Below are positions 396 to 63,034 of a stretch of 64,000 nt of DNA, piece by piece. The translations under genes were made by a program, and so were the position numbers. The notes beneath the pieces are model-generated. The model did no database searches and had not been told where the DNA came from. It saw only the letters and a list, made by a program, of their open reading frames with translations. Source of the stretch: Amoebophrya sp. A120. Lineage: Eukaryota; Protista; Dinoflagellata. The stretch spans positions 2,097,904 through 2,161,903 of the forward strand of contig CAJINV010000001.1 of the NCBI GenBank assembly GCA_905178155.1, written 5' to 3'. Position 1 is the stretch's first letter. The number at the start of each line of letters is the position of its first letter.

Positions 396-1642
396 CTACA
401 AGCCTTGACTGCGGTAGACCTCCGGGTCCTGGGAACAGTTCAGGCCGGCGTTTCGGGGCTTGCTATCGGTGAAGGAGTGCGAGAACTTGTTGCTTTTCGG
501 AAAAAACGCGTCCGCCACCTGGTGGGGCCGCGGCTTCTCGTTGCCATAAACACTATCCAAGAAAAAATACTGTTTCACTGTGATGATTTTGCAATATCTG
601 CACCACAAGTTTGTTTACACATGACACACAAATTTTGGCATGCGCGCTTCCCAAGGGAAAACACGGCTAATTCTCCAACTTCTTGCAGGTGTAGCAAGAC
701 AAATAGTTCTGTGTTCCATTTTCTGCATCACAAGTTCACGGTGAAACAGTCTTTTCTTTTCTTGCCATAAACACTGGAGGTGGTGTAGTACAGCGGGTTC
801 TCCTTGTATCCCACGAAAAAAGTGTTACAGTTACAAATTTGTAGTCAATTCAGCAACACAAATTTCTCTGCATGAGAGAGAAAACTTGTAATGCAGAAAT
901 CCTACGGGAAAGCACCTATGAGACGAGGCTTCTATACGTATCCGGCATGACAGAGCTTGTCTGTCTTGCTTGGCCTGCAACACAATGTGTAACTGTCACT
1001 TTTTCCTTGTGATACCTCGCGCAAAGGCGGATAAATCATGCGGTCCGGGTCCACGGGAAACCTCTTCGGCAACACGTGCGCGCTCAGTACCTGGCGGAGT
1101 ATTCAAAATTGTCGTTGCAAAATAAATACAGGCGAACAACAAGCCAAGAAACGTAGAAGTTTCAACAAAAGTCTGCTTCTCTTTCTGCCTACTTCTAACT
1201 TATATTTCATTTAGGTCGTTAACCACTTCTTAGATAGAGTAGTACCCGCTCCGCATTGATGGAATCGGCTTCCTTTTTGATGGTGTTTGTCATAATGAAG
1301 TCCGTGTCCTCGACCACTTATCCTCTGCAAAAGTATCGCACCCGTGGTAATCCCAATCATGCATTGCAAATTCCTTTCTTGTGGTAAACCCACATTATAT
1401 ATAAATTCCATTTGCATTTGTCATGCTAAGGGAATTTGTCATGCGATTTCTACGTAGTGCGATACTTTTGCAATGCATACCACCGGCCGGACCGGCTTCT
1501 TCAGGTCGTCATTTCTCCGGATCACTTCCTTCGGCGTGAGGAGGTCCTTCTTCGATTTCACCCGGTTTCCGAACCCAATCTCGGACTGCGTGGTGCGCCA
1601 GAAGCTCGGCACCGCCTTCTGCGGAAGCTCTTCTTCCGGCAT
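396..1642 (-). CDS. PIERCE1/PIERCE2 (C9orf116/C15orf65, FAP182-like) axonemal microtubule inner protein; spliced
   Basis: Removing introners 1319-1479, 807-1014 and 554-769 plus a GT-AG intron (1091-1245) gives one ORF, MPEEELPQ...ENPLYYTTSSVYGNEKPRPHQVADAFFPKSNKFS...RNAGLN. This resembles the family motif PLYRTSNxxYG...FxPxSxKFS. Family recognised from memory, not by search. Confidence 0.65.
554..769. mobile_element. IR introner, family G
   Basis: TAT...ATA ends; TIR AAGAAAAAATACTGTTTCACTGTGA versus TCACGGTGAAACAGTCTTTTCTTT; TSD AACAC/AACAC. Confidence 0.85.
807..1014. mobile_element. IR introner, family D
   Basis: TIR AAAAAGTGTTACAGTTACA; TSD CCTTG/CCTCG; related to 56975-57183. Confidence 0.85.
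1319..1479. mobile_element. IR introner, family A
   Basis: TIR TGCAAAAGTATCGCAC (1326-1341 and 1457-1472); TSD CCACT/CCACC. Confidence 0.9.
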
Positions 1643-3323
1643 GATAAAAGTTTTTAGTTGAAGTAGATGATACGACCTTCCTACCGCTCACAAAATGTTG
1701 GGCAAAAAAAAACCTACAGTAAGTCAAAATAAAGACCGTTGCGTTGTCTTGCTTTGTAGGATTGTTGAACAACAGATGTCCGATATCTTGATCTTCACCG
1801 ATTTTGATTTTCTTTCTGCTCCTTGCCCCAACGTTGCCCAAAATACAACTCTGACGAGATGGTGCCTCGGTCGTCTCTCAAGCGACTTCAAGTTGTTGCC
1901 GTTGCGTAAAGAAGAATACTATGTGAGACTAAGATGTCACCACAACTGGACTATCTATAGCAGAGTGATGAGCTCGACGTCAACCCGCCCTCGGGCTCAG
2001 ACAATTATCGATATAGCTACTACAAGTTCAAGTAGTACGGGCTTCGAGAAAGTGAAAATGGGAATGAAATGAATCGTCCGAGCTGCGTTTTATCAAATTC
2101 GCTCAAGAAGTGGGTCCAACCTGCATCCGTGTCGTTTCTTGCAAGTAACTGCAACAAATAAAGGTAGCAGATCTTCTTCGCAAGATTTCATCTTTTATTT
2201 TTCCGCAAAAACTACTACAAAAGTATGTTCTTGCTGCTGGGCTCGGTCGCAGTACGTGGTACAAAATATCCTCTACGGCTTCTCGGACGCACACCTGATT
2301 TTCCAAGGACGAGAGACGAAACGAAGTGCGACGACGAGATTTTTTTAACTCGCGTGGACGATATTCATTTCGACGGGCACTATTGGGTCCAAGAAAGGCA
2401 TGAAAACAACACCGCAGATGACCTTGTCTGCGTGACAATCAATGTTGATAAAAATCACCGATAATTTATGAGAACGTATATGTGTTTTTCAACCCGTCAA
2501 GTTGTCGTCATATACATGCACTTAAGGTCTTCAACGCCGTATGTCCATGGTACATCGCGGAGGTTTATCAAGAAAAATGTCGATCCTATCTATGCCCATG
2601 GGTACCTGTAGATACCAGAAAAAATCAAACTTCTTGCCCATTTCACCGAGGGAACGAAGATTTACAGCTGCGTGCGTCGGAGTACGAAATGCATATGCAC
2701 GCACCCAAAACTTGTAGTCAAAACGTACCAGCATGAAATGGCGTCACACGACTGCGTCGTCATAGTAAAAAGCAGGAGCGATCCACCCACGACAACATCA
2801 AAGAATAAGAAAACGGCATCAAACATTGAGCAGCACACTTGACAACACAAAAACTGTGACTACTTGGGCATGACTAGCAAAACTGGTTGAATTTTTACTA
2901 GTCGTGTGATTGTGACCGAATATTCGTATTCCAAAAAAGTTTTACAAAAATTGTCTACTCTCTTCCTATGTCCGACGCGAATTATGCACGGAGATACAAT
3001 CGACAGAGAGCTAGAAGTGGAGCAAGAATCCAGTGGAACAATGATTGAAGGTTAGGATTTATTAGGAAGCCGCCCGCCCAAATGGAGACACTTCTTCGCT
3101 GAAGATCTTATCGTATCGAAAACATTGGCGCAAGCCTGACAATCCTATCACTTAGTCCATGTCTTGTTCGTTCAATCTCTTCTACCCCTGCTACTTATTC
3201 CAAATCGACGAAGGTCGTTATTTGCGAAGTGCACCCTCTGCCGTGAATGGTATCGACAACTTTCATCTTGCAAATAGGGAAGGACGAGACCATGCGTAAA
3301 TACAAATACGCCATATTAGCTGC

Positions 3324-4926
3324 TCAGATGCTGGCTTCAGAACTGAGATCGCTTGAAAAATCATACTCGTATCCTGTGCAAAAGTATCGCACTCGTATAA
3401 ATTTAAATGCAAGTCTTGCATTACAAATATCGTGTCCACGACAAATCTGCACTACAAATCTTATTTCTCATGCTGGGGAAATTTGTAATGCATTTAAATT
3501 TATACGAGTACGATACTTTTGCAATGCATAATTCGTCCTCCTCGTCAACGTTTGTGTCGTCCAAATTGCTCGATCGCTTACTGCTGTGCGCTGTGTCTTT
3601 CGATGAGGAAGAATTGGCGTTTTTTTCACCAGATGTTGTCGTCGTAGTACTTGATGTCGCCGTATTAAAACTACTATTCAGCTTGTAGAATTCCGGAATT
3701 GGTGCGGCACTGATGATGCGCTTCTTGATGTCCAGAATCTGCTGACGCTGTGGCTCGTAGTCGCGGCATTGCATGCCCTCGCGACTAAACATCCAGGCTT
3801 GCTTCTGGTGCTTCTTGTTGCCCTCACAGGACCACTGTAGGTTCTCCAGCTTCTCCAGGTGTTTCGGGGTCAGAACCTGATGGTCGTAGGCGTAGTTTGA
3901 GTGACGTAGTACTAAATAGTCTCTCTTCTTTGAGTGATTTGGATATATAAGACGCAACAAGAGAAGGACACTGAAAACAAAATGGGCACCACCGCCCCTT
4001 CGTTGATTCTCATTCTCTGTCTAAGTCTATGCGTGAAAAAGTACAAGAACCGCCTCTACCTCGTCCTGATGCTCTCCACATAAAAGACAGCGCATCTTGC
4101 AGACATTTGCCTTCAGGAAATAATCCTCACTCATGACGAACATGAGGTAGGGGCAGTTTTTCCGCGGCTCCACGGTGGAAACGGTGTTGTCGAGAATCTT
4201 GTCGAGCACCAGCCGCAGCGTGTCCATGGCAATCTGCCGATTCTTCACTTCTACTAAATGCTCCGGGTCCTGCGAGTGCTCCCAGTAGAATTCCTTCGGC
4301 TTCTTCGTCGATTTCGTCCGACACAGGAGGCACTTGAACTGCAGACCGTGGAAATTATTGATGTCGCCGATCACTTTGCAGTACTGCCGCAGGTCCTTCT
4401 TTACGACGTACTGACATTCGTCTGTGCTCCATTCCAACAGATGATCCCATTCCCCGTTGTAGTTGTCCCACGAGTCGCTGGCAGCCTGGCTGGAGGAGGA
4501 GGATTTCTTGTTGTTCTTGGTTGAGGAGGAAGTCCCTGTAGTTGCTCCATTCTCTTGTTCATCCTCGTCCACATCCACGCACTTGCCGAACATGCACTTA
4601 TCCAAAAACTTCGACTTCTGCCACGCCTGCTGCTTCCGCTCACGGTCCTTCCGCTCCTTTTTCAGCCTTTCCCGCTCGGCATTGTCCGCCTTCTTCTGCC
4701 GCCGGGCCTGCGCCTGCCGCTCCTCCTCCTCCAGCTGCTCCTGTCGCGCGCGCGCTTCTTCCGGACTCAAGTTCAACCGAGCTAATTCTTCCTCCAACTG
4801 ACGCTGCAACTGGGTTTGAGCAGTGGTATTTGAGGAGGTCGCGGGCGCGGCAGGAGCTTTGCTGTGTTTGCTACCGGTGCCCGCTGATGGGTTCTGCTGC
4901 TGGTCCACCCGTCGTCCTCCGCCCAT
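3324..4926 (-). CDS. Protein with coiled-coil N-terminus and U1/matrin-like C2H2 zinc finger(s); spliced
   Basis: ORF 4027-4926 contains CLLC-x14-H-x5-H and a second CLLC. It continues in ORF 3421-3960 after a probable GT-AG intron (acceptor uncertain). Removing introner 3370-3530 gives DE-YDFSSDLSSEASI-stop. Confidence 0.55.
3370..3530. mobile_element. IR introner, family A
   Basis: 35-bp TIR with one mismatch (3377-3411 and 3489-3523); TSD ACTCG/ATTCG. Confidence 0.9.
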
Positions 4927-5743: not shown

Positions 5744-8462
5744 CTAGTGCTTTCGTTTTTTTGTCCCGTAGGTGCCAGGATCGTAGTCCTCGTCTTCGGA
5801 GCGCATGTCGACGTCACTCAAATCCTCGTCCATCTCCTCGCTTTCGGGGTCTTCCCCCGGCACAAAGTCGCTGTCCTCCGAGTTATCATCCAGCACCTCG
5901 TGCTGCTGTCGTGCTGCCGCGCTCGCCATCGATTTCGCAGGCATCTGCAGCTCCGGCACCTTGACTCCCCGCTCCTTGAGCGCGGCCAGGAGCGGTGGAC
6001 ACTCCTCTTTCGGGACCTGAGAAAGAATGTACAAAACTTCGGAAGGAGCTGCGAGGCAGTAAGAACTACCTTCAACCGCCTTCAGAATGAATGATCTTCA
6101 CGAAACTAGCGCTATTGACGGCGATCAGAGTTGTGATACAGAATCTTCACACACTTGTCGTGAAGACAATTTGTCGTCGCGTCCCCTCACGATAGGCCAC
6201 CAAGAAGTAGAAACAACTCAAATGAAGAATAATCCGCAACTACACCAGTTCCTATTTTTTATACCTGTGTAAATTCGAAGGTGGCGTCTTTGGTGACAAC
6301 GGACATGACGAGGAAGCGATTGCTGTTGTGCATGTCCGTTCCCCGCTGCAGCTGTATCGCTAATATCCGCGAGTACATGATGTACAGAATCGGTTTGTGA
6401 ATGAACAAAATCGCCTTCTTCAGCGGAAAGATCATGCCGTTGTTGCTCTTGTGGCTGCACATCACGCACTTCCCGCCCCGCGCCGACATGTAGGTGTCCA
6501 ATGCGAGGGTGAGCGTGACGTCCGACAGCATGGTGAATAAACGGGAGAGAAACTCGTACAACAGCAAACTCCTTTTCCCCGTCGTGGGCTCGCGATTCAG
6601 GTTGTGCTTCTTGAGCTCGACCTCCTTAATGTTGTTCAGCTCCATCGCGTCCGGCGTCGGGAGCGACAGCGCCTCGGACTGCATGCAGATGAAGTGGTGC
6701 TCCTGCGACCCGTGGCGAATCGGCATGGAGAGCTGAAACACTAAATGCATGTCGTTCCGCAGCCCCTGTAATACGAACAGTTTCCGCAGCGTGCTGTAGC
6801 GAATCATGAAGTCGCTGCTTTTCCCGTGCAGGCTGAAACCGTTGCTGTGAAACTTCAAACTGCCCCGCAGCGCGGGCACCGCCCACTTGAGGTCCGGCAC
6901 TTCGCAGACGGTCTCGCTCACGTCCATTTCCAGATCCAAGCCCGTGATCATGGCGGACCGGAGCTTCTCCGCGCGGGTCTGGTCTTCAAACTCGTTTGCG
7001 TTTTTCTTCTTGTTGCCGCCACGCTTATTTCTCCCGCCCACGTTGCTCGCGTCGTCGTCACCCGGGTTATGACAATGCGCACCTCCCCCTCATTTGTATA
7101 GCATGAACGGCAATACAAGCATCAGCAAGAGTGCCGGTTTTGCATGACAAAGTTACACTGGAGTGTATTACTATTTGGGCCACCGGAATTTGTCATACAT
7201 GCCAACAGTGCCAAGAGGCAAAGGCTGGATTGGGTATTTTGCATGACAAATGAGGGGAGGGGGAGTTGTGCACTGTCATACGGGTCCAGGTCCCCGTCGC
7301 CGCGCTCGGGCTCGATGTAAAACCGGACTTCCGTCAAAAGTTCGGCGCCGGTGCGAGAACTACCTTGGTCGGCGCGGAGCGCTTCGTTTTCGTCCAATCC
7401 GAACGGGTCTTCCAGCTCGACGTGCACCTCGTTGCGGTTGGGGTTTGTCACCTGGGACACGTCCCGCGCGACCAAATGCAGCACCTGCTCGTCGTTCTCG
7501 TTCCGAAGACTGTACTCCAGCTCGTCATCACCGAGAAGATCTAAATCCCCCCAGTTCCCCCCGCGCGTCGCCAGCAACCGGTTGCTCAGGCCCGCAATCC
7601 GCTTGTTCAGCTTTGGGGAGGGGGAGCGTTCGTCGTCCGAGGAGGAATCACTTTCGTCCTCCTTGGCCAGCAGCTCGTCCGCCAGTAGCGGCGCCGCTTT
7701 GTGAACCATTTCCCGATGAAACACGTGACTACTTAAAATGCTCTCGATGTTCAGGATGTCTTCCTTTTTGAAGCCATCGTAACGGAAAATATTCTTTTTC
7801 GTGACGAACTTCAGCAAAAAGCTCCTGCCCGACTATCAAAACGAAAAATCCCCCCTCCCCATATCGAAAGCGAAATATTGTGATGCTGTATCTGAGTACA
7901 CAAATCGACTTGTAATGCTAGAAGGCCAGGACGAGACGCAGCTGTGGCCTCGGTTGCAGGCAATTTGTCATGCTGTTTCCCACTTCCAGCTGCCCCCTGT
8001 CATGCTGACGATGCAAGGCTTTCCCACGCCAAGCAGCACTCGAGTCCGCATCTTTTCCCTTCTAGCATGACAAAGCTGATTTGTGACCACAAATCTGCAT
8101 CACAAATTTCTAGGTTGAGTATGGAGTGGGGGGATTTTTCACTTTGATGCCGACACCTGGGTCACCTCCGGCCGCTCCAGTAGGTCGCGGAAAAAAAACG
8201 ACTGGATCTTGTTCGTAAGCACGTTTTTGAACCCGCACTGCTCCGGGTTCAGTCGGAACAAGCCCAACGCGCCCGTGGGCACGTCCCGAATCTCGGAGAA
8301 CGCGAGTTTTAACTGTTGTTCCTGCTGATTGATGTTCGCTGGGTTATTGTTGTTTGTCCCGCCGGAGGAAGGGCCTGCTGCACCACTACTCCCGCCGGCG
8401 TTCTTGCCGCCGCCGGTGGAGGATGAAGAGGCTGGGTTCATGTTGGGCCGGTGGGAGGACAT
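5744..8462 (-). CDS. SSRP1: FACT complex subunit SSRP1/Pob3; 4 exons
   Basis: Motifs FRYDGF, RGGNWG, LTEVRFYI, LHGKSSDFMIRY, PIRHGSQEHHF and IFPLKKAILFIHKP, plus the acidic tail DSEDSDFVP. The frame is restored by removing introners 7834-8149 and 7068-7280 and GT-AG intron 6017-6264. Confidence 0.9.
7068..7280. mobile_element. IR introner, family B
   Basis: TATGACA...TGTCATA; TSD CGGGT; highly similar along its length to 22973-23191. Confidence 0.92.
7834..8149. mobile_element. IR introner, family F-like
   Basis: TIR ATCAAAACGAAAAATCCCCCC versus GGGGGGATTTTTCACTTTGAT; TSD CCGAC; ends ATG rather than ATA. Confidence 0.88.
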
Positions 8463-10158: not shown

Positions 10159-13100
10159 TCACGCCGAAGCAGTGATGGCGTTCAACCCCGAGCTCTGCAG
10201 CATCAACTTCTGCACGCACAGCAGGGCTTCCCGGGCCACCTCACGCTGGCTAGCGAAATATCCCTCGGGAACTTCTGGTCACGTTGTGGAAAATCAGGAC
10301 TCAGCAACTATTGAAGATATTTCCAGCCGGACGTCGTTACATGCATATGTTGATCCTCGATCTAGAATCGTGGCGAATGGAGGCTCGCTGCAAGAACCGC
10401 ACATAGCATATTACCGCGGCAAGAACGGGTGGAAACATCTGCAGGCTGTATCGTAGCTACAAATAGACACGACCCGATGGTACGCGTGGTTTAGTTCATC
10501 TAAATCGGTTTGTTTTTTGCCTCTACTTGACCATATGAAGTCCTTCGGGATATGGACATCAGCTCCAGCATTTTGTCCTTAGCCCCACGCGTTGTTGCGA
10601 TGTGCTTACCTACAGAGTCAAATGGAGGAACAGGATTAGGATTTTCTTCGCAATTAGAATTATAGTACTGTTGAGGAGGATGGCTGAGATTTTGCATCGA
10701 AAACAAAAAGGTGAGCATCATCATGCAAAAAACACTAGGCTCAACAATCGTATACCGACGGGATGCAGGCGGGCGAATTCCCCAAGATCGTGGCAGGCGA
10801 CCGCGTATCAACTGTAAAAATGTCTGGGTCTGGAAGAGGGGTGTCATGCTTGTCTGGCATGACAAAAAAGTTTGTGATGCGTGTCCACGACGAGACCCTT
10901 ATGCCTGTCATGCAAAAACGCAGTGTCTCATGCGAAAAACGCAACACAAAGCAGCGCAGATATTTCTCATGCTTGGTTGTGCATTACAGAGCATTCACTA
11001 TTCCCAACACAGCATTACAAGTTTCCAGACCCAGACATTTTTACATTTGATACCGCGAGAGTTTCTGCGTCCTTACTGGTTCGCACAATCACAATATCAC
11101 AGGAAAAAGTGTTAACGTTAACGGAATTTGTGATGCAGTAGTACATCACAAAACTACGTGCCCCCCAACTTTGTCATGTATAGCATGCATACCAGGCAAA
11201 ATTTGTGATGCATATTTGCAATCTATGAAAATCGTTAACATTAACACTTTTTTGTTTGATACACCATCAGGTGGTCGATCACCTTGAAGTTGCTTCCCTC
11301 GCACTTCAAAACCTGCATTTTTGTAAGGCTAAGCAGTGGTGGAGTACTTGCGTAAGATGTAGCTGACGCGGCTTGTTTCCCTTTCGTTTCTGTTGATGTT
11401 GGCATGTTGTACTCTACTGTACTCTTCAGTATTTTCAAAAACATCGCAAATCGAAATCATGTAGTAAGTAAATGAATACGTTTTCGAGCCAGAACTTTTC
11501 ACTGTGGATGAATCCCCACTTGAGCCTGCCGGACATGACCTCCCGTTCGAACCGCTCGAAATTGGTCAAGATCTTGACCTCCGCCTGCAGCGCAGAGATC
11601 AGCTTCTTGATGAGGGCGATCAGCTCCGGGTCCCTCCACTTCTCATATTCCAGGGCGGACACCAGGTTCATCGTCTCCTGCTCCGCCATTTCTGATTTTG
11701 GAAGAAATTTGAATTTCGATGATGATGAAATTGGTGGAGTTGGACAGTTTATACGATTTATTCTGTTCCATTTTTTTTCCATGTTTGTAGCAGGGCCTCC
11801 TGTTGTGTTTGCGCAGACGAGCTGGCGTGAAATAGGTAAATGAACTTCAATTTGTTCCCCTTCAACATCATGATGCGCGACAAGGACCTTAACGACGATC
11901 GGACGATCGTGATAAGGGCTGACAAATGCTGTTCTTTCAAAAACTACCCCTTGAAAACGAAAACAATAAATCCTGTACCTTCACACATGGTCTTCTTCGC
12001 GAGCAGGTTTTCTATTGCCATGAGCGCAATGCGGATCACTTTCTCAGTGCGCACCGTCTTCAAAATCTCGTTGATACTCGAAATCACGCTGGTTGGCATC
12101 TCGACGTCTGTTTTTTTTTTTTGAAAACTATTTTCATTTTGTTTGTGATTGTGAAGATCATGCGTCCTGCGTCTGTATAATGGATCGATGATGTAGATGT
12201 TGTACATCATCTTCGGTCGAGTATTCGCCGGCGAGGAGCAGGAGCGACGGATTCGTCGCACGAAAAACGAAAATCAAAATGAATCAATAAATCAGTACCT
12301 TTGTTAAAGCTCGTGAGCCAGACACACATCAGTGCTTTGTACATGGTCGGAACGCTGCTACTGGAAACGCCACTCAAAATTCGCATCTGCATCGGCGGAA
12401 AAAGGGTCTGAGAGTTTTTTTTAACAGAGACTCTTCAAAATTTGCTAGTTGTCTTTTTTCGATGAAAAGAATTTCGTGAGACAAAGATAAAGAAGTCTCA
12501 GCGTCTACTTCACAAATTTCGATGGCAAAGGCCCGAAAAAAAGCAGGAAAATAAATCCAGTGTTTTTTAGTATACCGATCGCCAATCGGAGCACTTCAGA
12601 AGATTTGCCAAAACGTCGAGTTTACCCGCCTCGGTACCGCTGTATTCCGAGCAGCCAGTATGAAAACGAAAAAAGAACGCGATCGACGGTGCCTAGTCTT
12701 CTTTCATGAACGATGTCGACAGATTAATGGCTATAGCTGGGCGCGATTAAGTGTCTGTCTTCGTATCCATTTTTTTTTTTTTTCCAACATGCACATGCTG
12801 GCGTGACAACTTATGCAACCATATCAATGCTAAATGCAGATGCATGTCAAGAAGATGAAGAAATGAAATCAAATGGTAGTCGCCGACATCTCGGTTCGTG
12901 CACGGCCACGCATGTAAGTACTGAAATGGAAATGCAAATGACCCTCAGGCGCCTGTCGAATTAAGTACAAAGTTCTGTTTTGCTTCCATATGCCTTGACC
13001 TGTGCGGTGGTAAACTTTGCTGGGTATCTGCACATCACGCCGCTGAGCAATATGGGTCTCCCAAGCGTTACATCCTCAACTGTTGCGTGATTTGTCATGC

Positions 13101-13360
13101 AAAATGACCATGAGCCACAAGACGATCAAGCTGCTTCGCATGACAAATTATCGAAGGGCTAAACAACATCTAAGTCCGTGCCTAATTGTAATTTGTGATG
13201 CAAGAGGACTTGCAGTTGAGAATGTAACAGTTGAAAACGCCATAAGCAAGCTGGCCGCCTTGTCGCACATGACCGTGTCGCGAAACTTCATCAGCTCTGC
13301 GAGGTTACTCGTGTTTTCCGGCGTCGCCAAAGCGGCATACAACCCGATAGGACTATGGTA
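10159..13360 (-). CDS. ATP6V1H: V-type proton ATPase subunit H; many exons, 5' start not identified
   Basis: Motifs EKVIRIALMAIENLL, LTNFERFEREVMSGRLKWGFIHSEKFWLEN, TLAVACHDLGEF, GAKDKMLELM and REVAREALLCVQKLM. Stop at 10159-10161. The 5' coordinate is approximate. Confidence 0.85.
10806..11052. mobile_element. IR introner, family C
   Basis: TIR TATCAAcTGTAAAAATGTCTGGGTCTGGAA; TSD CCGCG. Confidence 0.92.
11095..11261. mobile_element. IR introner, family D variant
   Basis: TIR AAAAAGTGTTAAcGTTAACG; TSD CACAA/CACCA. Confidence 0.85.
13051..13244. mobile_element. IR introner, family E
   Basis: Inner TIR GTTACATcCTCAACTG versus CAGTTGAGAATGTAAC; TSD AGCAA; related to 40342-40577. Confidence 0.88.
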
Positions 13361-25795: not shown

Positions 25796-26608
25796 CTAGA
25801 TGGCAACGTCGATCGATGTGTCGTCAATGGATTCAAGCAGGGACGTTTCCCGGTCGTCGTCCTCCTTCGACGGTTCCGGTTCGCGCTTATCAAGTGTAAA
25901 AATGTCTGGGTCTGGAAGAATGCGCGATTTGTCATGCTGCTTTTCCATGACCCATAAGGTCTGGAATGCCGGAGCTCGCATGACAGATTCTGCGAGACCT
26001 TTGCAATGCCTATCCTGCATGAGAAACTACCTCCCGACTTGGTCAAAATTGGGCGACTTTTGGTAATCACGCAACACAGATTTTTGCATGCTGCAGATTT
26101 AGCATGACAAGTTGCAATCTTCCAGACCCAGACATGTTTACATTTGATAGCGCTCCCCCTCCTGCAACTTCGCTTGCGCGCTTTGCGCCAGCGCCGTGGC
26201 AGCCGCGAGGTCTGCAGAAGTAGCTGGTGGTGTTCCTGCGGCGCGCTCAGCAGCGTTCATTTTGTCGGTTGTGGTGACAGAAGCTGCTCCTGTCGCAGCT
26301 GCAGCGGCGTCCAGGACGACCGGCGCGCCGGTCCCAGTCAACGCCTTCTCCTCTGCGTCGCCCGTGGCTCCGACCAGGTAGGAAAAGAAGCTGACCATTT
26401 TTTCACCGATGAAGCTCAGCCGGGGCTTGTTGTTGTCTTCGCGGCCCCGGTTCGCGCGGCCCAGAGCGCTGCCGCGGAACCGGGGTCTCTTGCCCACTGT
26501 TCCGGACACGGTGGCGGGCCGCCCGATGAAGCCTTTGGTCGATCCCACACACATCAGAGCGAGGACCATCAGCGTGATCGCGCTCGGACTCCGGACGAGA
26601 ACAACCAT
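25796..26608 (-). CDS. Small hypothetical protein with signal-peptide-like N-terminus
   Basis: N-terminus MVVLVRSPSAITLMVLALMCVGSTKG. Removing introner 25888-26149 gives QEGER-EPEPSKEDDD...VAI-stop. Confidence 0.6.
25888..26149. mobile_element. IR introner, family C
   Basis: TIR containing TGTCTGGGTCTGGAAGA; TSD GCGCT. Confidence 0.92.
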
Positions 26609-34143: not shown

Positions 34144-34342
34144 GTCGTAATTTTGTTCCGCACCAAGGTCCTCCTGGAGTTGCCTAAAAAATGTTTATCC
34201 GTTCTTGTTTCTATGATCGTATTCTTACTTTATTGATTGCTCCTGCTCGCTATTTACAAAAATGCATGTTCATGATCAAGGCGCAGCCGCAGGAGCACAA
34301 CATCGCCGTACTAAAAATCGAAATGCACCACGAAAAAATTGT

Positions 34343-42500: not shown

Positions 42501-43073
42501 CTTAGCAACACAAATCCAGAAGTTTTGGGAGCCACGCATGCCAAGTTGCAGTCCGTAGTGTAGTGCAGGTTTAGGTTAGCAACGGAAATTGCATCACAAA
42601 TCCATCTGCTCATTCTGTTTTCAGCATTACAAATGCCAAAACACGATTGAAAATGCCTCTATTGGGTCTGCGCATTACAAATGTTCAGTTCCTGTAATCG
42701 CAAATCTGCATGACAACTCTGGGTTGGAAATGTTTTTACATAGGATAACCGGCGCCATCCATTCATCCAATTCCGCGATGGCCTTGTTCAGAAAAAGCTG
42801 GACCGCGATGATTTCCCCCGTTAGCGCCTCCACGAAATGCCGCCCGTGGTCAAATTTCAAACAGGCGACGATCTCTCGTTCCTGCTCGGTCAAAAAACGC
42901 TGGAGCTCCTTCAGTTGGGCGATCCGGTAGTCATACGACCGCGTTTTTCCGCTTCGGAACGTCTGGTGTAGGTCGGAAACCCGAGCTTCCATCCGTTTCG
43001 ACTCGGATCGCTGTCGCAGCAGCTTGTGCGGCGACGGTGGCCCGTCCGAGTGGTTGTTCGGTGAGCTGCTCAT
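39558..43073 (-). CDS. ALDH3: Class-3 (fatty) aldehyde dehydrogenase with C-terminal membrane anchor; 6 exons
   Basis: Motifs EPKGVALVIAPWNYP, LKPTE, FTGS, LELGGKNP (catalytic Glu), NCGQVCMAPDY (catalytic Cys), EIFGPLLP and LPFGGIRRSGCG. The frame is restored by removing five introners. Confidence 0.92.
40342..40577. mobile_element. IR introner, family E
   Basis: TIR GTTACATTCTCAACTG; TSD TCAAA; removal restores DPILKDEIFGP. Confidence 0.9.
41250..41394. mobile_element. IR introner, family A
   Basis: TIR TGCAAAAGTATCgCACTCGTA; TSD CAAAA. Confidence 0.9.
41721..41891. mobile_element. IR introner, family H
   Basis: TATGCAAT...GTGGATA; TSD CGCCT/TGCCT; related to 61677-61827; removal restores TQALLQYNRFDHILFTGS. 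Confidence 0.85.
42104..42382. mobile_element. IR introner, family I (young)
   Basis: Perfect 32-bp TIR TATCCTGAGTAAAAACGTACCCACACCAGAGT; TSD CCCCT. Confidence 0.95.
42452..42747. mobile_element. IR introner, family I (older)
   Basis: TATCCTGGGTAAAAAC...GTTTTTACATAGGATA; TSD AACGG/ACCGG; internally similar to 42104-42382. Confidence 0.88.
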
Positions 43074-44133: not shown

Positions 44134-47100
44134 TCAGTAAACATTTAACAACGCTCGAAACTGACCCGGAAAGTCTTTCTCTTCGTTGCATTTCGACAAT
44201 GCAATCCAATCCGCCGCCTCCGCTTCTGTCGTACGAAAATACAGCCGCTGCAACGCCTTCGAAAGCGTTTCTGGGTCGATATCGCTGTAGGAGTCTCCGG
44301 TTGTACGAACTACGCTGGAAGTAGGTGTCGCCGCAGCAGTGTTGTTTGATTTTACAGTAGTTGCGGCTTTCGTCCCAGGAGCTCCTCCTAGGATCGTACT
44401 CGCCGCGCTCGCTAGGTCCCGCGGCGCGGCGTGGTTGACCACGGGATCAAAAATCTCGTCCTATCAACTGTAAAAATGTCTGGGTCTGGAAACTCGTGAT
44501 GCTGGGTGGCGTTTGTTCATGATGAGGCTACAGATGCTGGCTCAGCATGACAAGTTTCTGAGCTCTTAGGTGTTGCCTATTCTGCATGACAAACTGCGCC
44601 TCTGCATCACAGAAAAACGGAGCTCTTGGGTAACGCGCATGACAGATTTAAGAGTCATGCCAGACAAGCATGACAAACATGAATTCTTCCAGACCCAGAC
44701 ATTTTTACAGTTGATACGTCCACAAATTTCCCTAATTCCCCCGGGGAAACAAACGAGTCGGCGCCGGAGAGATCCGCTACCAGCGCCTGGGCGTCCTCGA
44801 CGGAGTAGCCTGCCAGGGCGAGCGGCTCAATCATCCACTCATGCACGTCGGAACCCGTGATCGCGTCTGTGTTGAAGGGATTTCTTTGATCAGATTCAGA
44901 TCTTAGACCACATGTATCGTAAAATTATTCATCAATCCATGGAGAGACGGCCTCATCAACCTAACTGGTGAAAGTTGAAACTCAAACTATTGAGAAGATT
45001 TAAGTGCCATCTTTGTCCCGATCCATGGTTCGGAAGAGCGTGCTGTTGCACAAATCCCGAACCAAATCCGCAAACGGCGAAGGCTGGGGTTTACTTGGCG
45101 CGGATACAACGGCAGCAGTGGAGCTGACAGAGGCTTTGTTTTTTCCTAGGAGGTTGACGCTATTTTTCACGTTCTGCCCTTGTTGTCCTTGTGCTGCAGA
45201 CACTAGCTTGGTGGAGGTCGTCTTCGACGTGTTGCACCGATCATTCAAACCGCTTTCTGAGCCGGCTGGTGATTTCGCGTTTTCCACCGTGGTATCAACT
45301 GTGACGCTGGTCTTTACTCCCTTCTTTTGTTCCACTTCAACGCCGTACTTGTGCTCATCTTTCTTTTCATCGCTGTTGACCTTCTCAAAGTCCAACTTCG
45401 AGACAGAATTCGCGAGTAACGAATTCGCCGAATTTCTGGCACTTACGCGCTTCACCTGTTCCTGCAACGGCGTCTCACTAGTCGACTTCACCGAGCGCCG
45501 GCCTGTGCTGCTCAGTCGAGCGGAGTTCCGCCCTGCACTTCCCTTCGCGGCGCTACTTTCTTTCACGGAGATCCGCGCACTTTGTCGACCGCCGGGTTGA
45601 GCCGGCACGGCGTTCTCCTTTTCAGACTGGATGCTCTCAGTTGCACATGTTGCTGCTCCATCCCCTCCTAACTCCGCAGCGAGGTGGACTGGGGCATCAC
45701 CACCAGCCTCGATGCTCTCGTCTTCCTTCAGAGTACTCAAATCCACTCGAGCGCTCAACCGCGAGGCGGGCATTGGAGGTTCCGGCGTCTTCACGCTTTT
45801 CCTCGGTACTGCACTGCTTGTGTGAGATGAAATCCGCGCTACGGGATTAAAGCTGCCCGTAGAAGTTCCTGCCAACTTCTTGGCACTGTGGCTTGCACTT
45901 TCTACTTCCGGTAGTTCTTTTGAAGCTGCTCCTGTCGACAAATGTCCCTCGGGAATGGCGGGCATAGCGGCTTTAACACCACTTGCAAAGAGTCGCGGGT
46001 TTTTCGGTGTCTGGGAGGATTTTGCTTGCTTCGCCTCCTCCTGTGCTGGACTGGCGGAAGAAACATCGACGTAGTCGGGCTCATATGCACTGGAAAAGTA
46101 TCGCACTCGTAGTAATGGCAGTCCTGCATTGCAAACCAGACTTTCTACCCGAAGTAGCATGACAAGTTGCATTTTTGTACTTGAGAGAATGTGCCATGCA
46201 ATTTTTCACACTAGTACGATACTTTTGCAATGCATAGCTCAACGGCCTTCGACACACGGACCATGGCAGGCGGAATTGACTTTTTTTCTGGGCTATGATC
46301 ATGCTCTCCTTTCTTCTTCGCAAGATCTTCCCCGTCGCCAACAGAAGACTCACCCGCGTTTTGTAGTCCCGTAGCTCCTCCTGCACCGCCCTCTCCTGAG
46401 CCTGGTTTGGCTGTACGACTAGAAGATTCGTCTGTAGCCGACGACAACGGATGCTGAAGCTCGTCTCCTGCACAGGGGGAAATATCCTCCTCTTCTTCCT
46501 CCACAACCGTTAAGAGGTCCAGTTTCGCCCGCTTGCTTTTTCGCGTGTCGAAAGCGGCTTTATTCATTCCACGACTATGCTGTCCCTTTTTCGTCTCGCT
46601 ACCGCTGGTCTCCTCCTCGCCGAAGTCACTCAATGCTTCAGTAGGTGCAGTGAAAGCGCGTGCCAGGCCTGCGCGCTTCTTGTGACCAGGGGCCAGTTCC
46701 TGCGACGATAATTCCGCCTCCTCGTCCTCCTCATATTGGTCGATCGCCCCTAAGTCGTCCGTGGTCGCCGCACGCAGGATGTCCGACGCGGCTTTTTTCG
46801 GTGGCGGATCGGAGGAAACGCGGTTTTTGTCCTTCTGCTTCGCCGTAATCTTCTTGTTGAACAGGCGGATGTGCTTTTGCACCATGGACATGCAAACCGT
46901 TTGGGACTTGCGCTTGTCGATGGCCGCGGCGTCCACCAGCGGAAGTCCCTCGGGGATCGAAGTGAGGGGGAGCTGCTGGTGGGTGGACGAGGGTGTAGTA
47001 GTTGTCGCGGTAGTGGTGGAGTTTTTCTTCGAGGACTTCCTTGTTTTCGCGGGTGTTAGTGCAGAGGATCCACTTGACATTCTGGAAGATGAACTACGGG

Positions 47101-54800: not shown

Positions 54801-57800
54801 TGGTGGTCGCTCTCGCTGTACGCCACCAGCGCCGATTGACAAAGGAAGATTCTTTCGACTCTCTATCCGCGCAGGAGGACCACGACCAGCATCGCCGGCG
54901 GAAGATGAGGGCTGATGTGCAGCGTGAAGGAGCTGCTCTGGACTGCTCGATGACCCACCAACTCCTCCACCGACCGCCAGCTCCTTTCGCTGTTGTTCCT
55001 TTTGCAGCTCCAGTTCTCGACTTTCGGACCGCAGTCGCGATACGTATTGCTGCAGCCGGCTCTGCTCGTCCATCAGTGCTGTTAACGCCGTGTTGTCACT
55101 CGCGATCTTCTGCAATTTCTCCTTGTACTCTTCCCCGGCCTTCTATCCAGGAAGAAAAACCCACCCCCATTCATTTTTTGCATGGCAAACATTATGGAAA
55201 TTATGCATTTTTTGCATGACAAATTGGATGGGGGTGGGTGTTTTTCCCTGGATACCTTCTTCGCTGTCTCCACGTCCTGCGCCAGTTGCTGGTCCCGGAG
55301 CGCGACCAGCTGCGCGGTCTGCAGTTTCAAATTCTGCACCTCCTGGGACAGTCGTTCCTTCTCGTGCCGTTTCTCGTTCATAGTCTCCTCCATCTGCTTC
55401 TTACTCTCACAAATCTCCTGCTTCGCCTCCTCGAGCTCCTTCTGCGTTTTCAGTTGCTCCTCCTTCAGCTTTTCTAACAGCGCCAGTTGGTGTTTCTTGT
55501 CCTCCTTGTACGTTTTCTCCAGCTCTTCCAATTCCTTTTCCCGCTGCTCCACGCGGTTTAGCGTCGCTTCCTCCCGCTGCTTCCACTGCTTCACGAGTTG
55601 CCGCCGCTTCTCCTCCTCGGTCGTGTCCTCGTCGAGTAACAGGCGCAGTGCTTCCTGCTTCCGCTGCACCTTCGCGTCTAACTCTTCAAGCGTTTTCTTC
55701 CGCTCTTTCTTCTCATCCTCAAACTGCTCCCGGAAGGATTTCCTTTCGTCTTCCAGATTTTCCCGGTGCTTTTCCAAATCTCTCTCCCGGTCCTGCAACT
55801 TCTTGTTCAGCGCCTGCAAATCCTCTTTCGCCCGATTCAGATCCTTCTCGACCGATAATTTGCTATTCCTTATTTTCCCCTCGAGTTCCTCTTTTTCGTT
55901 CCGCATAGTTTGAATTTCGGATTTCACCGTGGAAATTTCCGCACTTATTTTGCCCTTTTGCGCCTCCAAATTGTGGATCTCGTTGCTCTTCTTCAACCGC
56001 ACCTCTTCCAGCGCGGCGACGTTCGACTGCGTGTCCATCGCTGCTTGTTTGGCCTCCTCCGCGGCCTGCTGCTTCTTCGTCAAATCTTCCTTCAGCTGCG
56101 TGCGTTTCCGGGAAAGATCCTCGAAATCCCCCTTCGCGGCGGCGAGCTCGACTTTCTTCGAGGACAAATCTCTGTCTAGGTCGTCCACTTGTGTCCAGAT
56201 AGTTGTCCTCTTCCGTTCCAATTCCAAAATCTCCGCACTCAACACTTTCGCTTGGTCCTGCTCGATCTGGTTCCGCAAATCTTCGTGCCGTTTCCGCAAA
56301 TCCGTCATCTCCGCCGTTCTCTTGCTCGCTTCGGTCTCCATCTGGATCTTCTTCGCTTGCAGGTCCTGCAAAGCTGTGGTGTGGCTGAGCTTCTCGATTT
56401 CCAGTTCGCCTAGGGAATTGGACAACTCGATCTTCGAACTTTCCAACCGGTGCAGCTCCTGTTTCAGCTCCACGCCGCGCGCGTGCTTGCGCTCGTTCTC
56501 CGCCACCTGCTGCTCGTACTGACCGGTCAGGGACTCGATGCGCTGCATCAGCACACTCGCCTCGTTTGTCATGGTGGTCACGTCGGCCCGGGCGTTGTCG
56601 CTCTTCTTAGTGTAGGCTTCAATTTCCGCTTCCTGCTCCTCGACGCGAGATTCTTGCTCTTTGACCTGATAGAAAAGAAACGAATGCAACAGTTGTAAGT
56701 AAGTACTTCCGTGTGCTTCTCCTTTTCTGCACCTGCTGTAACCGTAGATGTGCTGGAGAACACAATCTCATTCCCTGTGTCTATTTCATGCAAAAGAAAA
56801 AAAAAGTCATGTAATTGATGCAACACAAAAGAGCGAAACTATACCTTCTCCTTCAGCTCCTCGAAATGCTTCTCCAGCTCTTCGTATTCTTGTTCTAATT
56901 GCTTATTTCCTAATCCGAGTTTGTTTATCCTCTCCTTGGTTTCCTGCTTTTCCGTCTCCAAGTGCTCTAAACTGTATCAAAGGAAAAAAGTGTTACAGTT
57001 ACACATTTGTTGGAATTCTAGCATCACAAGTTGCTCTGCATGGCAAAAGTAATGCGCAGACTATAAGGGAAAACACACGCGAAATGACGCTAGCAAGCTC
57101 AAGCATTTCCTGCATGACAGAGGTTGTCTGTCTTGCTTGTCTTGCGTCAGGGTGTGTAACTGTAACACTTTTTTCTCACGATAAACTGCTCTGCAGCTCC
57201 ACTGCTTCCTTCCGCATTTCCTCCAGCTGATTCTGCTTCTTGTCCAAATTTGCATCAACAGCCGCCATCCGCTCCTTCCGCTGCTCAAACTGCAGCTCAA
57301 ATTCCTCGAATTTGTTTGCTTGCTCCGCTTCAATTTTCTGCTTCTCGAAGGAAATTTCCTGCAGTTTTTCCTGCATTTTTCCCAACTCCTCCTCCGCTTC
57401 CGTTCTTTTCCCATTGATCGCTTCCGTTTCTTCCTTGAATATGCATTGCAAATGTATCTGGGTCTGGAAGAGTGCAAGCTTGTAATGCGCACTTCATAAC
57501 ACAAAAAAGTCTCTCATGCATAGGCAGCAAAAGTTGCCCTCTTTCTGTCACCAAAATGGGGCATTTGTCATGCGGATTCGGCATTGCGCAAGCTTTTCGA
57601 AATCTGTAATGCTAGAGCTTCCATGCTATACCTTCTGTGTCATGCTAAAGCAGCATGACTCTTCCAGACCCAGACATATTTGCATTTGATATTCAATTGG
57701 TGGATTTTATTTTCCTCCTCCGCGTATGCCTCGACCGCCTTCGACAGCATGGCCCGCTGCATCTCCAGCCGTTCTTTCGATTCCGCCGCGGCTTTCTCCC

Positions 57801-61202: not shown

Positions 61203-63034
61203 TCATTCGATGTCGCTCCCGTCGGCGCGCTCGGTCATGGCGTGCACAGCTTGCTTGGCCCAATCCTTGGCGCTCCAGTCTTTCGGCACTGCACTCATGG
61301 CCAGCACGTGCTTTCGGAAATCGTCTTCCTGGTTCACTATTGGGGCGATCTCCGCTGCCTTCGACCTGGTACATAGTGAAGTTTCCAAAGAAAGCATTTC
61401 AGCAGTTGTTGTGCAGTGCTTCGATCGCGATTATTAGACCACTTAGAACTACTAGAAGCAGCTCCAGAGCAGAAATATCGGAAAATAAACGAAGCGGATT
61501 ATTTTTATCTTTTTCTTCTTGCAAATCATTATCAAAAATGTGATCATCAAGCGGTAGTCACAACATCAAAAAGGTACCATGCCGTGAAGAACTGCGCGAA
61601 CGCAGACTTCAGATTGATGATTTCGCGCTTTGCCGAGCTGCCGATTGCCTCGCTGCTGTAGTTTCCTAGCTCCTTCTATGCAATGTAAATTTCCTGTACA
61701 TGTACAAAATGCATGACAAATTTCGCTACCTTGCAGAGCCCAGCTTGTCATGCTGCACTAGGATTGGAGGCAAGTTTTGTCATGCAGAAACCACATTTGT
61801 ACGTGTACGGGAAATTTACTGTGGATACCTTCAGGGTGGCGTTGGCTTCGTCCACCGGTATTGGCTTGACTAGGGTTTCGTTCGCGAGCTGTGGGTGTTG
61901 GGATTTATTGTACAAAGTGTTTTCTATCTCCTGCACCTCGTGCTTTACCCCCTCGAAATATCGCTCGGTCTCGTCTCTCGCGAGGCGCTCTCTCTGCATC
62001 TCCTGCTGGTACTCCACATAGCCGGATATGGCCAAAAGCTCCTGCCACGTCTGGTCCCGAGCCCGGTCTGTGTCCAGCCTGTCTTCCAGCGAATTTTCAA
62101 AGTCACTTGTTGTTGGAGGCGGGTTCTTTGCTTGATCATGCACTGTTGTGTTACCTGCTGCGGTCGTGTTACTACCATATTTACTTTCAAACACGATGCT
62201 CGTTTGTTCCCCATTGGCCCCCATGACTTCTATTCTCGGTGTCAGACCGACGGAGACCCGGCCTAAATTCATCATCTGCGAGCTTTGCTTGGATGAGGGC
62301 CGGTTCCCAGCCTCGACCATACTGATGCCGGCGTAGAGATCAAAAAACGCGGCGTTGGTGCGCGGAGACGTCGACAATGCATCCGCGTTTTCCGACAAAA
62401 GCTGCCGCTGCACAATCTCCTGCTGCCGGGCAAGTAATTCCGCGATCTGCTTTTGGTGAATCGCCAAAACCTGCTCCAAATCCTCCGTGATTCCTTGCTC
62501 CTGTTGCTCCCCCGGCGCCGCAGTGGTTCGGCTCTGTGCCGTCGCTCGTGATAATTGCTCAGTCTCTCTTTCATCGCTCCGGAAGACCACGTCTTGGTTG
62601 GGTATTTCAGTCGGGGAGGGGAGAAAACTGCTGGGATCGAACGAACCTGGGGGCAGGCCGCCTCCAAATTTATTGTTTTTTACCTCTGAAACCATGGTCG
62701 CCTGTGCCTGCGCGGCGGCCTCGGCCTGCGCAGCCTTCTCGGCTTCCATCGGCGCGAACCGGAGTTCTCGGTTTTTCTCCGCCACCTCCTGCATTCTTGA
62801 CCACTGGTCCTTCCAAAAGCGTCCAACCTCCGTCCTCAAGTCCCGCTCGTTCTCCCGGTGTTTTATCATCTGTGGATTGGATTTTTGTGTTTCTGCTTTC
62901 AACACTTTCAGTTTCAGCATACTGTTCAAATTTTCACGAGAAACCAAGGACGTCGTGGTCGTGTCGCAACAATATGATTGTAGTTCACCAGCACAAAAGA
63001 AAAGTCCATGAAGAAAGAACAAAACATGCCTCAT
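61203..63034 (-). CDS. Hypothetical protein, possible signal peptide, coiled-coil segments
   Basis: 428-aa ORF that continues after introner 61677-61827 (TLK-ELGNYSSE). Probable last exon within 61203-61397. Start uncertain. Confidence 0.55.
61677..61827. mobile_element. IR introner, family H
   Basis: TIR GTAAATTTCCtGTACAtGTACAAA; TSD CCTTC. Confidence 0.9.

What the first reader, a model, noticed from the sequence alone, without database searches (positions are those of the whole stretch)
554..61827. One insertion grammar unites at least nine TIR families of intron-forming elements: TAT...ATA ends and a 5-bp target duplication
Seen: 25 elements with unrelated inner TIRs all start TAT, and 23 end ATA. 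All are flanked by 5-bp direct repeats (17 perfect, 8 with one mismatch). All lie inside coding exons, and removing an element plus one repeat restores conserved protein motifs. I saw none between genes. Established: inverted-repeat introners with non-canonical splice sites are known from Amoebophrya. Inference: the uniform ends and TSD length point to one transposase lineage mobilising every family, and to a removal mechanism that reads the element rather than GT-AG. No transposase is present in this window.
Basis: partly seen in the sequence, partly recalled or inferred. Interest (0 to 1): 0.85.

Follow-up and report, generated by a model that had tools for sequence, protein, structure and literature searches.

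The report
Transposon introns cut at fixed offset
These are the already published transposon-derived introns of the marine parasite Amoebophrya A120: RNA contigs show they are removed to the base without normal splice signals, likely by a cut one base before their TAT start and four bases after their ATA end, and nearly all carry one shared internal motif that likely marks a common, still unidentified mobilising protein.

Summary
Observation confirmed: 25 elements, all starting TAT, 23 ending ATA, with 5-bp duplications (17 perfect, 8 one mismatch). The window is Amoebophrya sp. A120. Its introners, TAT starts and a 5-bp example are published (PMC7789003). Spliced contigs lack exactly element + 5 bases at 9 of 9 joints displayed. 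In another assembly, a motif-blind scan gives 5-bp repeats in 233 of 455 short inverted-repeat pairs, 210 of them TAT..ATA. Sites show no GT-AG bias. Three refinements, none found in print: (1) the duplication is fixed at 5 bp across families; (2) eight mismatched duplications fit one register, intron = N-TAT...ATA-NNNN, though the upper bound rests on two cases; (3) the families are not unrelated: GCAT[GCT]ACA[AG] occurs in 24/25 window and 397/415 outside elements, often 31-33 bp apart, with no strand bias. I also found three missed older elements, one of 1.8 kb. No transposase was found; the single-lineage claim is inferred. Known system, sharpened into testable rules.

The parts
554..769 (-). 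introner, repeat AACAC/AACAC (+ strand; all host genes are on the - strand)
   Evidence: removal fits RNA contig length arithmetic
807..1014 (-). introner, CCTTG/CCTCG; GT-AG under the 1|4 register
   Evidence: length arithmetic
1319..1479 (-). introner, CCACT/CCACC; mRNA keeps repeat position 1 from the upstream copy
3370..3530 (-). introner, ACTCG/ATTCG; mRNA keeps position 4 from the upstream copy
   Evidence: contig piece starts at 3531; other side not displayed
7068..7280 (-). introner in the SSRP1/POB3 gene, CGGGT/CGGGT
   Evidence: RNA joint 7062|7281
7834..8149 (-). introner in SSRP1, CCGAC/CCGAC; transcript 5' end is CAT, still removed exactly
   Evidence: RNA joint 7828|8150; orthologs without indel
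   Evidence: annotated protein P0004
10806..11052 (-). introner in V-ATPase H, CCGCG/CCGCG
11095..11261 (-). introner in V-ATPase H, CACAA/CACCA; conserved Met needs position 2 from the upstream copy
13051..13244 (-). introner in V-ATPase H, AGCAA/AGCAA
13354..15189 (-).
   Evidence: X4 loose end at 13350 continues with 15192 onward
13609..15076 (.). unrelated 1.47-kb fold-back element nested in the composite introner; 28-bp TIR, no TAT ends, no evident duplication
   Evidence: no Pfam or Atlas hit for its 149-aa ORF
20595..20848 (-). introner, ACTCG/ACTCG
22973..23191 (-). introner, CCGCA/CCGCA; the one window element without the strict motif
23256..23412 (-). introner, AGGTG/AGGTG
25888..26149 (-). 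introner, GCGCT/GCGCT
30439..30647 (-). introner with degenerate right end, CTAGA/GTAGA
   Evidence: removal not tested with RNA
40342..40577 (-). introner in the aldehyde dehydrogenase gene, TCAAA/TCAAA
   Evidence: RNA joint 40336|40578
41250..41394 (-). introner in ALDH, CAAAA/CAAAA
   Evidence: RNA joint 41244|41395
41721..41891 (-). introner in ALDH, CGCCT/TGCCT; mRNA takes position 5 from the downstream copy (a GC-AG reading is also possible)
   Evidence: RNA joint 41716|41893
42104..42382 (-). introner in ALDH, CCCCT/CCCCT
   Evidence: RNA joint 42098|42383
42452..42747 (-). introner in ALDH, AACGG/ACCGG; mRNA keeps position 4 from the upstream copy
   Evidence: RNA joint 42446|42748
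44462..44716 (-). introner, CGTCC/CGTCC
   Evidence: RNA joint 44456|44717
46084..46236 (-). introner, GCTCA/GCTCA
   Evidence: RNA joint 46078|46237
55144..55254 (-). introner, CCTTC/CCTTC; GT-AG under the 1|4 register
56975..57183 (-). introner, AACTG/AACTG
57440..57691 (-). introner, TTGAA/TTCAA
61677..61827 (-). introner, CCTTC/CCTTC; GT-AG under the 1|4 register
554..61827 (.). shared internal motif GCAT[GCT]ACA[AG], 0-6 strict copies per element, both orientations, often 31-33 bp apart
   Evidence: outside loci

Best explanation
These are Amoebophrya A120 introners: short non-coding elements with TAT...ATA inverted-repeat ends and a 5-bp duplication that sit in exons and are removed from the RNA together with exactly five flanking bases, likely by a relaxed spliceosome cutting one base before TAT and four bases after ATA, and likely spread by one integrase-like transposase that binds a motif shared by the families. 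Insertion (inferred): a DDE enzyme of the integrase/IS3/Ginger clan, encoded elsewhere, binds repeated GCATNACAA sites inside each end, cuts at TAT and makes a 5-bp staggered cut in the target, with either orientation and little target preference. Removal: the exact element+5 loss is shown; the register intron = N5-TAT...ATA-N1N2N3N4 is inferred by intersecting eight mismatched duplications. In that register the element supplies +2 T, +3 A and +4 T of a donor like the host's own GTA(T/C) donors, +1 and the last two bases are whatever the target held, and the 3' cut is placed by distance from ATA, probably helped by the terminal hairpin. Because both ends read TAT, either orientation gives an intron and the protein is restored unchanged.
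For: Exact removal: 7 of 7 elements in 39800-47000 and 2 more in 1-13500; three others by contig-length arithmetic (541-1478 loses 755 = 221+213+166+155; with the canonical intron). Frame restored by element+5 in 149 of 161 outside junctions with coding-like sides, of 398 scored. Orthologs have no indel at 7834 and at five of six V-ATPase H sites; 7068 and 12659 lie in unalignable stretches. Fixed repeat: 233 of 455 short TIR pairs have a best repeat of 5, 210 of them TAT..ATA; control 32 of 1820. No GT-AG bias. Register: position 1 upstream (1319), 2 (11095), 3 (13354), 4 (3370, 42452, 12659); position 5 downstream (41721, 10259). Host donors have +3 A in 9 of 9 (the 3876 row is printed one base off). 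Motif: 397 of 415 outside elements, 1207 hits against 9 shuffled; no transcript-strand bias, 30 against 35; absent from the three older elements, which are still removed, so it suits mobility better than splicing. No orientation bias in any of 15 families. IS3EU/GingerRoot have TA..TA ends and Ginger2 4-5 bp repeats (PMC10045372). A120 family 38 is listed as Ginger with 5-bp TSD and TA/TA termini (PMC12130899).
Against: No transposase: the long TAT..ATA copies examined hold nested insertions or are chance pairings, with no convincing ORF (8 of 15 candidates inspected); Farhat et al. found none in A120 and call general transposase mobilisation ruled out. No single element fixes the cut: the bound at position 5 rests on 41721, which can also be read as GC-AG, and on 10259, known only from an annotated protein. 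U1 snRNA was not detected in A120, and no lariat or branch point was tested. The terminal three pairs are predicted paired in only 15 of 25 elements, including near-zero values for exactly removed 41250 and 41721, so a simple stem ruler is not enough. First-T transversions occur at 3' ends only (4 of 7 against 0 of 3), but p = 0.2. TAT is only mildly more conserved than inner A/T sites (1.2% against 2.7%), which transposition alone explains. The 10-bp phasing is weak (R = 0.44 at 10.5, 0.28-0.37 at periods 7-9.5). All RNA evidence is contigs of one study whose RNA status is a guess by the tool.
Confidence: 0.55

Rival explanations
1. Removal is not spliceosomal: a structure-guided nuclease and ligase recognise the terminal hairpin and cut at fixed offsets, as proposed for euglenid non-conventional introns.
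For: A TIR stem is predicted in 23 of 25 elements. No constraint at +1 or at the 3' dinucleotide. U1 not detected in A120. A CAT-starting element is removed exactly.
Against: N-TAT matches host donors at +2 and +3. Nearly all spliceosomal proteins are retained. Elements with decayed stems and a 1.8-kb insert are still removed. Tunicates splice TE-derived non-GT/AG introns with a modified spliceosome (PMC11282704; PMC13326754).
Confidence: 0.2
2. The cut is not at one fixed register: it slides within the duplication or sits flush with TAT, using GC-AG or GA-AG where available; perfect duplications hide this.
For: 17 of 25 duplications are perfect and uninformative. All six lower-bound cases also fit a cut flush with TAT. 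41721 fits GC-AG and 44462 fits GA-AG. [quoted passage not shown] Contigs drop minor forms.
Against: 10259 excludes the flush cut and has no canonical alternative. All eight informative cases intersect at one register. All nine predominant A120 non-canonical motifs in Table S4 have T second, though aligner choice may contribute.
Confidence: 0.25
3. The uniform grammar is a survival filter, not one mobiliser: several transposases act, and only TAT-ended, 5-bp insertions give removable introns and persist in exons.
For: Other element types occur but only nested inside introners (13609-15076; L050, L063). A Mutator-type introner family exists in A120. Polarella introners use many repeat lengths (bioRxiv 2020.10.14.339549).
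Against: A filter on ends does not explain a multi-copy internal motif shared by the families, without strand bias and absent from older but still removed copies. It also predicts TAT-ended copies between genes at normal rates, whereas elements are enriched in coding-like sites (77% against 41% of random positions).
Confidence: 0.15
4. The elements spread through RNA (reverse splicing or copy-paste of the excised intron), with no transposase needed.
For: No transposase reported in A120; Farhat et al. favour copy-paste. Strong exon bias fits a transcription-linked route.
Against: Both orientations are equally common. The repeated unit is TAT..ATA with target-derived 5-mers, not the excised intron with its extra five bases. 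A fixed 5-bp duplication is the mark of a staggered DNA cut (established knowledge).
Confidence: 0.07

Closest known systems
Introner elements (IEs) of Amoebophrya sp. A120 (Farhat et al. 2021, PMC7789003)
   Same: Same organism and objects: inverted repeats starting TAT, then about seven variable bases and an A stretch; short direct repeats (Fig. S19 legend: 5 bp); non-canonical, RNA-supported removal.
   Different: The paper gives 3-5 nt variable repeats, leaves the border position unknown and rules out general transposase mobilisation. Here the repeat is fixed at 5, a single register is proposed, and a shared internal motif is found (figures not seen).
A120 introner families in Gozashti et al. 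2025 (PMC12130899), especially family 38
   Same: TIR DNA elements; family 38 (about 810 bp) is tabulated as Ginger, 5-bp TSD, TA/TA termini, with Copia/Gypsy-like homology.
   Different: The other families in the 56 of 58 rows read get automated repeat lengths of 2-6 (one 11) and mixed splice mechanisms and are attributed to diverse classes. No window element was matched to a numbered family.
IS3EU/GingerRoot, Ginger2/TDD and IS481EU DNA transposons (PMC10045372, PMC2836005)
   Same: TA..TA ends (IS3EU/GingerRoot), TNT..AYA ends (IS481EU), 4-5 bp repeats (Ginger2; 5 bp for TDD-4/5).
   Different: No group combines TA..TA with 5 bp: IS3EU/GingerRoot make 6 bp, Ginger ends are TGTNR, IS481EU makes about 4, 15 or 25 bp. 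No enzyme here to place.
Polarella/Symbiodinium, Aureococcus and Micromonas introners (bioRxiv 2020.10.14.339549; PMC11282704)
   Same: MITE-like insertions removed with one repeat copy; Polarella class 12 has a 5-nt repeat and a donor spanning repeat and element.
   Different: Those recruit G[TCA] and AG from element or repeat, which constrains the target. Here the target is unconstrained.
Euglenid non-conventional introns and Fritillaria non-GT/AG introns (PMC11282704)
   Same: TIR pairing of intron ends, repeat-like junctions, transposon origin.
   Different: Euglenid pairing is at +4..+6 and -8..-6, here +2 with -5; Fritillaria introns have a fixed dinucleotide class.

Membership tests
A120 introner elements (Farhat 2021) | Host is Amoebophrya A120 | tested here: met
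   P0001 100% and P0004 99% identical, source-named A120; P0001 equals the spliced product
A120 introner elements (Farhat 2021) | Inverted repeat starting TAT, about 7 variable bases, then 3 or more A | tested here: met
   End logo of 415 outside elements; window ends. One family (13051, 40342) lacks the A run at that place
A120 introner elements (Farhat 2021) | 3-5 nt direct repeat at the exon borders | tested here: met
   5 bp
A120 introner elements (Farhat 2021) | Removed from transcripts at non-canonical sites | tested here: met
   9 joints, none GT-AG in any register
MITE / non-autonomous TIR transposon | TIR, fixed TSD, short, non-coding, multi-copy | tested here: met
MITE / non-autonomous TIR transposon | Autonomous partner with the same ends | tested here: inconclusive
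   None in the window or in 638 kb of outside loci; no whole genome held
IS3EU/GingerRoot | TA..TA termini | tested here: met
   TAT..ATA; definition from PMC10045372
IS3EU/GingerRoot | 6-bp TSD | tested here: not met
   5 bp in 233 pairs, 6 bp in 2
Ginger1/Ginger2 | TGTNR termini | tested here: not met
   TAT; a few single-end TGT variants only; definition
Ginger1/Ginger2 | 4-bp (Ginger1) or 4-5 bp (Ginger2) TSD | tested here: met
   5 bp fits Ginger2/TDD only
Ginger / IS3EU / IS481EU | Integrase-like DDE transposase | not testable with these tools
   No autonomous copy retrieved; record not searchable
Transib (features recalled, not from a call) | CAC..GTG termini with 5-bp TSD | tested here: not met
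   Repeat length fits, ends do not
U2 spliceosomal intron | GT (GC/GA)..AG ends | tested here: not met
   5 of 28 window elements compatible in some register; outside set at background
U2 spliceosomal intron | Donor core +2 T, +3 A | tested here: inconclusive
   Met if the inferred 1|4 register holds
U2 spliceosomal intron | Branch point and lariat | not testable with these tools
   The shared motif contains TNAC but has no strand bias; no raw reads with cover
Aureococcus/Micromonas/Polarella-type introner | Near-canonical sites carried by the element or recruited from the TSD | tested here: not met
   definitions
Euglenid non-conventional intron | End pairing at +4..+6 with -8..-6 | tested here: not met
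   Pairing starts at +2/-5 under the inferred register; definition

The most novel reading that the evidence does not exclude
A120 runs a second splicing code written by a transposon. For tens of thousands of introns the machinery ignores +1 G and the 3' AG altogether, reads TAT as donor positions +2 to +4 and measures the 3' cut four bases past ATA, in either orientation and across 1.8 kb. All the main families are non-autonomous satellites of one undescribed integrase-like DNA transposon with TA..TA ends, a 5-bp duplication and multi-site, helically spaced end motifs (a Mu/Tn7-like end layout; that comparison is recalled), targeted to exons.
Probability: 0.3. Interest if true: 0.8.

Novelty: already known. 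Interest (0 to 1): 0.52.

Why it matters
Farhat et al. left two questions open for about 30,000 A120 introners: where they are cut and what moves them. A fixed 1|4 register is checkable at once with public RNA reads at mismatched duplications. It would correct intron annotation, where sliding borders have produced variable repeat lengths and many apparent splice classes, and it would define a spliceosome that needs neither G at +1 nor a 3' AG. The shared motif gives a concrete bait for the missing mobiliser and argues that many 'families' are one system. An element that is removed without trace from any exon position, in either orientation, is also a clean model of mass intron gain.

Tried and rejected
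No whole genome is held and the outside record cannot be searched for integrase domains, so no genome-wide transposase search was possible. TIR patterns found nothing in viral contigs (the first omitted the C variant). None of the 132 outside loci overlaps the window outside elements, so there is no DNA-level empty-site test. A G bias at +1 seen in the window (12 of 24, read) vanished in 180 outside elements (58/180) and was dropped. The motif as branch point was rejected for lack of strand bias and absence from older removed copies. Single-linkage subfamily clustering collapsed and was replaced by centroid clustering. Selection on TAT for splicing was inconclusive. A search for the annotated protein spanning 30439, which would have tested position 5, found nothing. 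Nine other relaxed candidates for decayed elements were left unclaimed for lack of RNA or protein support. The nested element's ORF has no Pfam or Atlas hit. Earlier scan notes held nothing on this genome or sequence.


Full report
Observation. A scan that assumed neither end motif nor repeat length returned TAT..ATA elements with 5-bp flanks as the dominant class. An end-anchored scan, BLAST of the elements against the window and direct reading gave 25 elements: all start TAT, 23 end ATA, 17 have perfect and 8 one-mismatch repeats. Only an assumed length of 5 gives high flank identity (0.90, against 0.21-0.35 for lengths 2-4 and 6-10). Three shuffled windows gave 1-4 weak hits. The elements fall into 14 inner-TIR groups, about 12-13 families once BLAST links are used.

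Organism and prior work. Two window proteins match proteins named Amoebophrya sp. A120 at 100% and 99%, on a contig of 16.5 Mb. Farhat et al. 2021 (PMC7789003; I read the abstract, passages, sections 10, 16 and 25, supplement passages and supplement part 3 of 5; figures are not held) already describe A120 introners. Their inverted repeats start with TAT, then seven variable bases and three or more A; direct repeats are 3-5 nt with a 5-bp example; there are 29,850 copies; U1 was not detected; no transposase was found in A120; the border position is marked unknown. Gozashti et al. 2025 (PMC12130899; passages, and 56 of 58 A120 rows of supplement file 8; files 13-14 not searched) assign mixed repeat lengths and mechanisms. 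They list family 38 as Ginger with 5-bp TSD and TA/TA termini, and family 65 as Mutator with 8-9 bp. The system is thus known.

Removal from RNA. Logan contigs of runs X1 and X4 are flagged only as probable RNA and come from one study, but they skip ordinary GT-AG and GC-AG introns. In 39800-47000 all 7 elements are skipped as element plus 5 bases. In 1-13500 two joints are displayed and exact (7062|7281, 7828|8150). Three more fit by length: 541-1478 loses 755 bases = 221+213+166+155. One (3370) is shown on one side only, and 10806, 11095 and 13051 were not displayed because the tables were cut. Nine elements lie outside the laid stretches. DNA run X5 contigs run into the elements, and no element+5 joint is among the rows shown (432 rows hidden). 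The spliced SSRP1 product equals the annotated protein. Orthologs have no indel at 7834, 10259, 10806, 11095, 13051 and 13354; 7068 and 12659 lie in unalignable stretches.

Missed members. 13354-15189 is a 1836-bp TAT..ATA element with AGGAC/AGAAC flanks that contains an unrelated 1.47-kb fold-back element. An X4 contig leaves the genome at 13350 and continues with sequence from 15192, and the annotated V-ATPase H protein crosses the site. Two decayed elements, 10259-10552 and 12659-12990, keep TAT/ATA and a weak TIR while their flanks match at only 2 and 1 of 5 bases. An intact duplication is therefore not needed for removal.

Wider sample. One family's TIR retrieved 132 loci from a single other assembly (JACKZZ01 contigs), 638 kb after merging, with that family over-represented (191 of 415). 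A scan blind to TAT found 455 short TIR pairs, chance pairs included. The best flanking repeat was 5 in 233 (210 TAT..ATA) and 6 in 2; 18 were 7, mostly TAT elements read one base in; shifted controls gave 5 in 32 of 1820. The anchored scan gave 415 elements, 338 with perfect repeats, and 0 in 366 kb of shuffled sequence. Of 398 junctions scored, 161 had coding-like sequence on both sides, and in 149 of these removal of element+5 restores the frame. Elements are coding-like in 77% against 41% of random positions. In the window all 26 tested elements fit minus-strand exons by RNA, protein or open frame, against a model coding share of 0.58; the model itself scored 3370 below zero and called 44462 on the plus strand.

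No GT-AG reading. In 180 stranded outside elements, position 5 is G in 58 and positions 3-4 are AG in 15. Sites compatible with GT-AG in any register number 9, and with G[TCA]-AG 21, both at background (3.6-5.7% and 9.9-14.2%). In the window 23 of 28 have no such solution. No family of 15 shows orientation bias.

Register. A mismatch between the two copies shows which copy the mRNA keeps. On the transcript strand, position 1 (1319), 2 (11095), 3 (13354) and 4 (3370, 42452, 12659) come from the upstream copy, and position 5 (41721, 10259) from the downstream copy. 11095, 12659 and 10259 rest on the annotated protein, which the paper says was built from transcript alignments; the Met at 11095 is also conserved in orthologs. 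If the register is fixed, only one fits: intron = N5-TAT...ATA-N1N2N3N4. The element then gives +2 T, +3 A and +4 T, and host donors in the window are GTA(T/C/G) or GCAC with +3 A in 9 of 9. All nine predominant A120 non-canonical motifs in Farhat's Table S4 have T second, which agrees but may reflect aligner choice. A passage in PMC13326754 notes that unmethylated U6 favours U at +4. The weak point is the upper bound: 41721 can also be read as GC-AG, leaving 10259. I put the 1|4 register at about 0.65. A TIR stem is predicted in 23 of 25 elements but the terminal three pairs in only 15.

Shared motif. GCAT[GCT]ACA[AG] occurs 63 times in 24 of 25 window elements and twice elsewhere in the window. 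It occurs 1207 times in 397 of 415 outside elements, against 9 in shuffles; a further 547 hits lie outside called elements, mostly in clusters that I did not resolve. At family level, the commonest spacing of adjacent copies is 31-33 bp, and outward-pointing copies sit 40-41, 48-51, 71-73 and 80-84 bases from the end. A formal test of 10.5-bp phasing is only suggestive. The motif has no transcript-strand bias (30 against 35) and is absent from the three older elements that are still removed, so I infer a DNA-level binding site for the mobiliser. I did not find the motif, the fixed repeat across families or the register in print (searches; passages of PMC11282704 and PMC11453091). The final Roy et al. 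2023 paper was not retrieved; I read passages of its preprint. bioRxiv supplements and all figures were unseen and could bear on this.

Mobiliser. None was found. Of 15 long TAT..ATA candidates, the 8 inspected are introners with nested insertions or chance pairings of neighbours, without a convincing ORF; 22 window ORFs have no transposase domain. By ends and repeat length the nearest groups are integrase-like: IS3EU/GingerRoot (TA..TA, 6 bp), Ginger2/TDD (TGT, 4-5 bp) and IS481EU (TNT..AYA) (passages of PMC10045372 and PMC2836005). None is met in full, so these work like such MITEs without being filed in any of them.

Verdict. The added value is three testable rules: a fixed 5-bp repeat, a likely 1|4 cut, and a shared end motif.

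Noticed in passing
window 13609-15076: A 1.47-kb fold-back element with a 28-bp TIR and many internal inverted repeats, nested in an introner, with no evident duplication; its size is close to a 1474-bp entry under A120 family 25 in PMC12130899, match not tested.
   Followed up: partly
window 541-553 and 762-774: At element 554 the direct repeat extends to 13 bases because the element's right end resembles the exon before the left copy; possible conversion or repair at insertion.
   Followed up: no
window 11023-11052, run X8: A 2026 RNA run with the same species label has no exon cover but 69-76 reads carrying this TIR family with other flanks and the shared motif: one abundant transcript with a retained element, or another strain.
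   Followed up: no
L050, L063, L036, L075 (merged coordinates): Introners of 739-1148 bp, some with clearly nested unrelated elements; one nested 764-bp element in L050 itself has TAT..ATA ends and a near-perfect 5-bp repeat but a different repeated motif.
   Followed up: partly
L001-L132: An assembly held among the metagenome contigs (JACKZZ01) carries relatives of all 25 window elements at 73-95% best identity, so a second A120-like genome is available for presence/absence comparison.
   Followed up: partly
window 44867-45007: A GC-AG intron without TIR, confirmed by both RNA contig sets.
   Followed up: yes
whole window: All genes examined lie on the minus strand: SSRP1/POB3, V-ATPase subunit H (six introners plus five canonical introns), aldehyde dehydrogenase (five introners), a RING-finger protein and a SAP-domain protein.
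   Followed up: partly
window about 16120-16250 and 25350-25490: A non-TIR intergenic repeat of about 130 bp seen by eye twice; the first copy is followed by a telomere-like CCCTAAACCCT at about 16261. A second repeat links about 16060-16120 with 17080-17140.
   Followed up: no
element ends such as 41721, 57440, 46084: In several families bases 4-12 of the TIR resemble the internal motif, so the terminal site may itself be a degenerate copy (one search scores some at position 4).
   Followed up: partly
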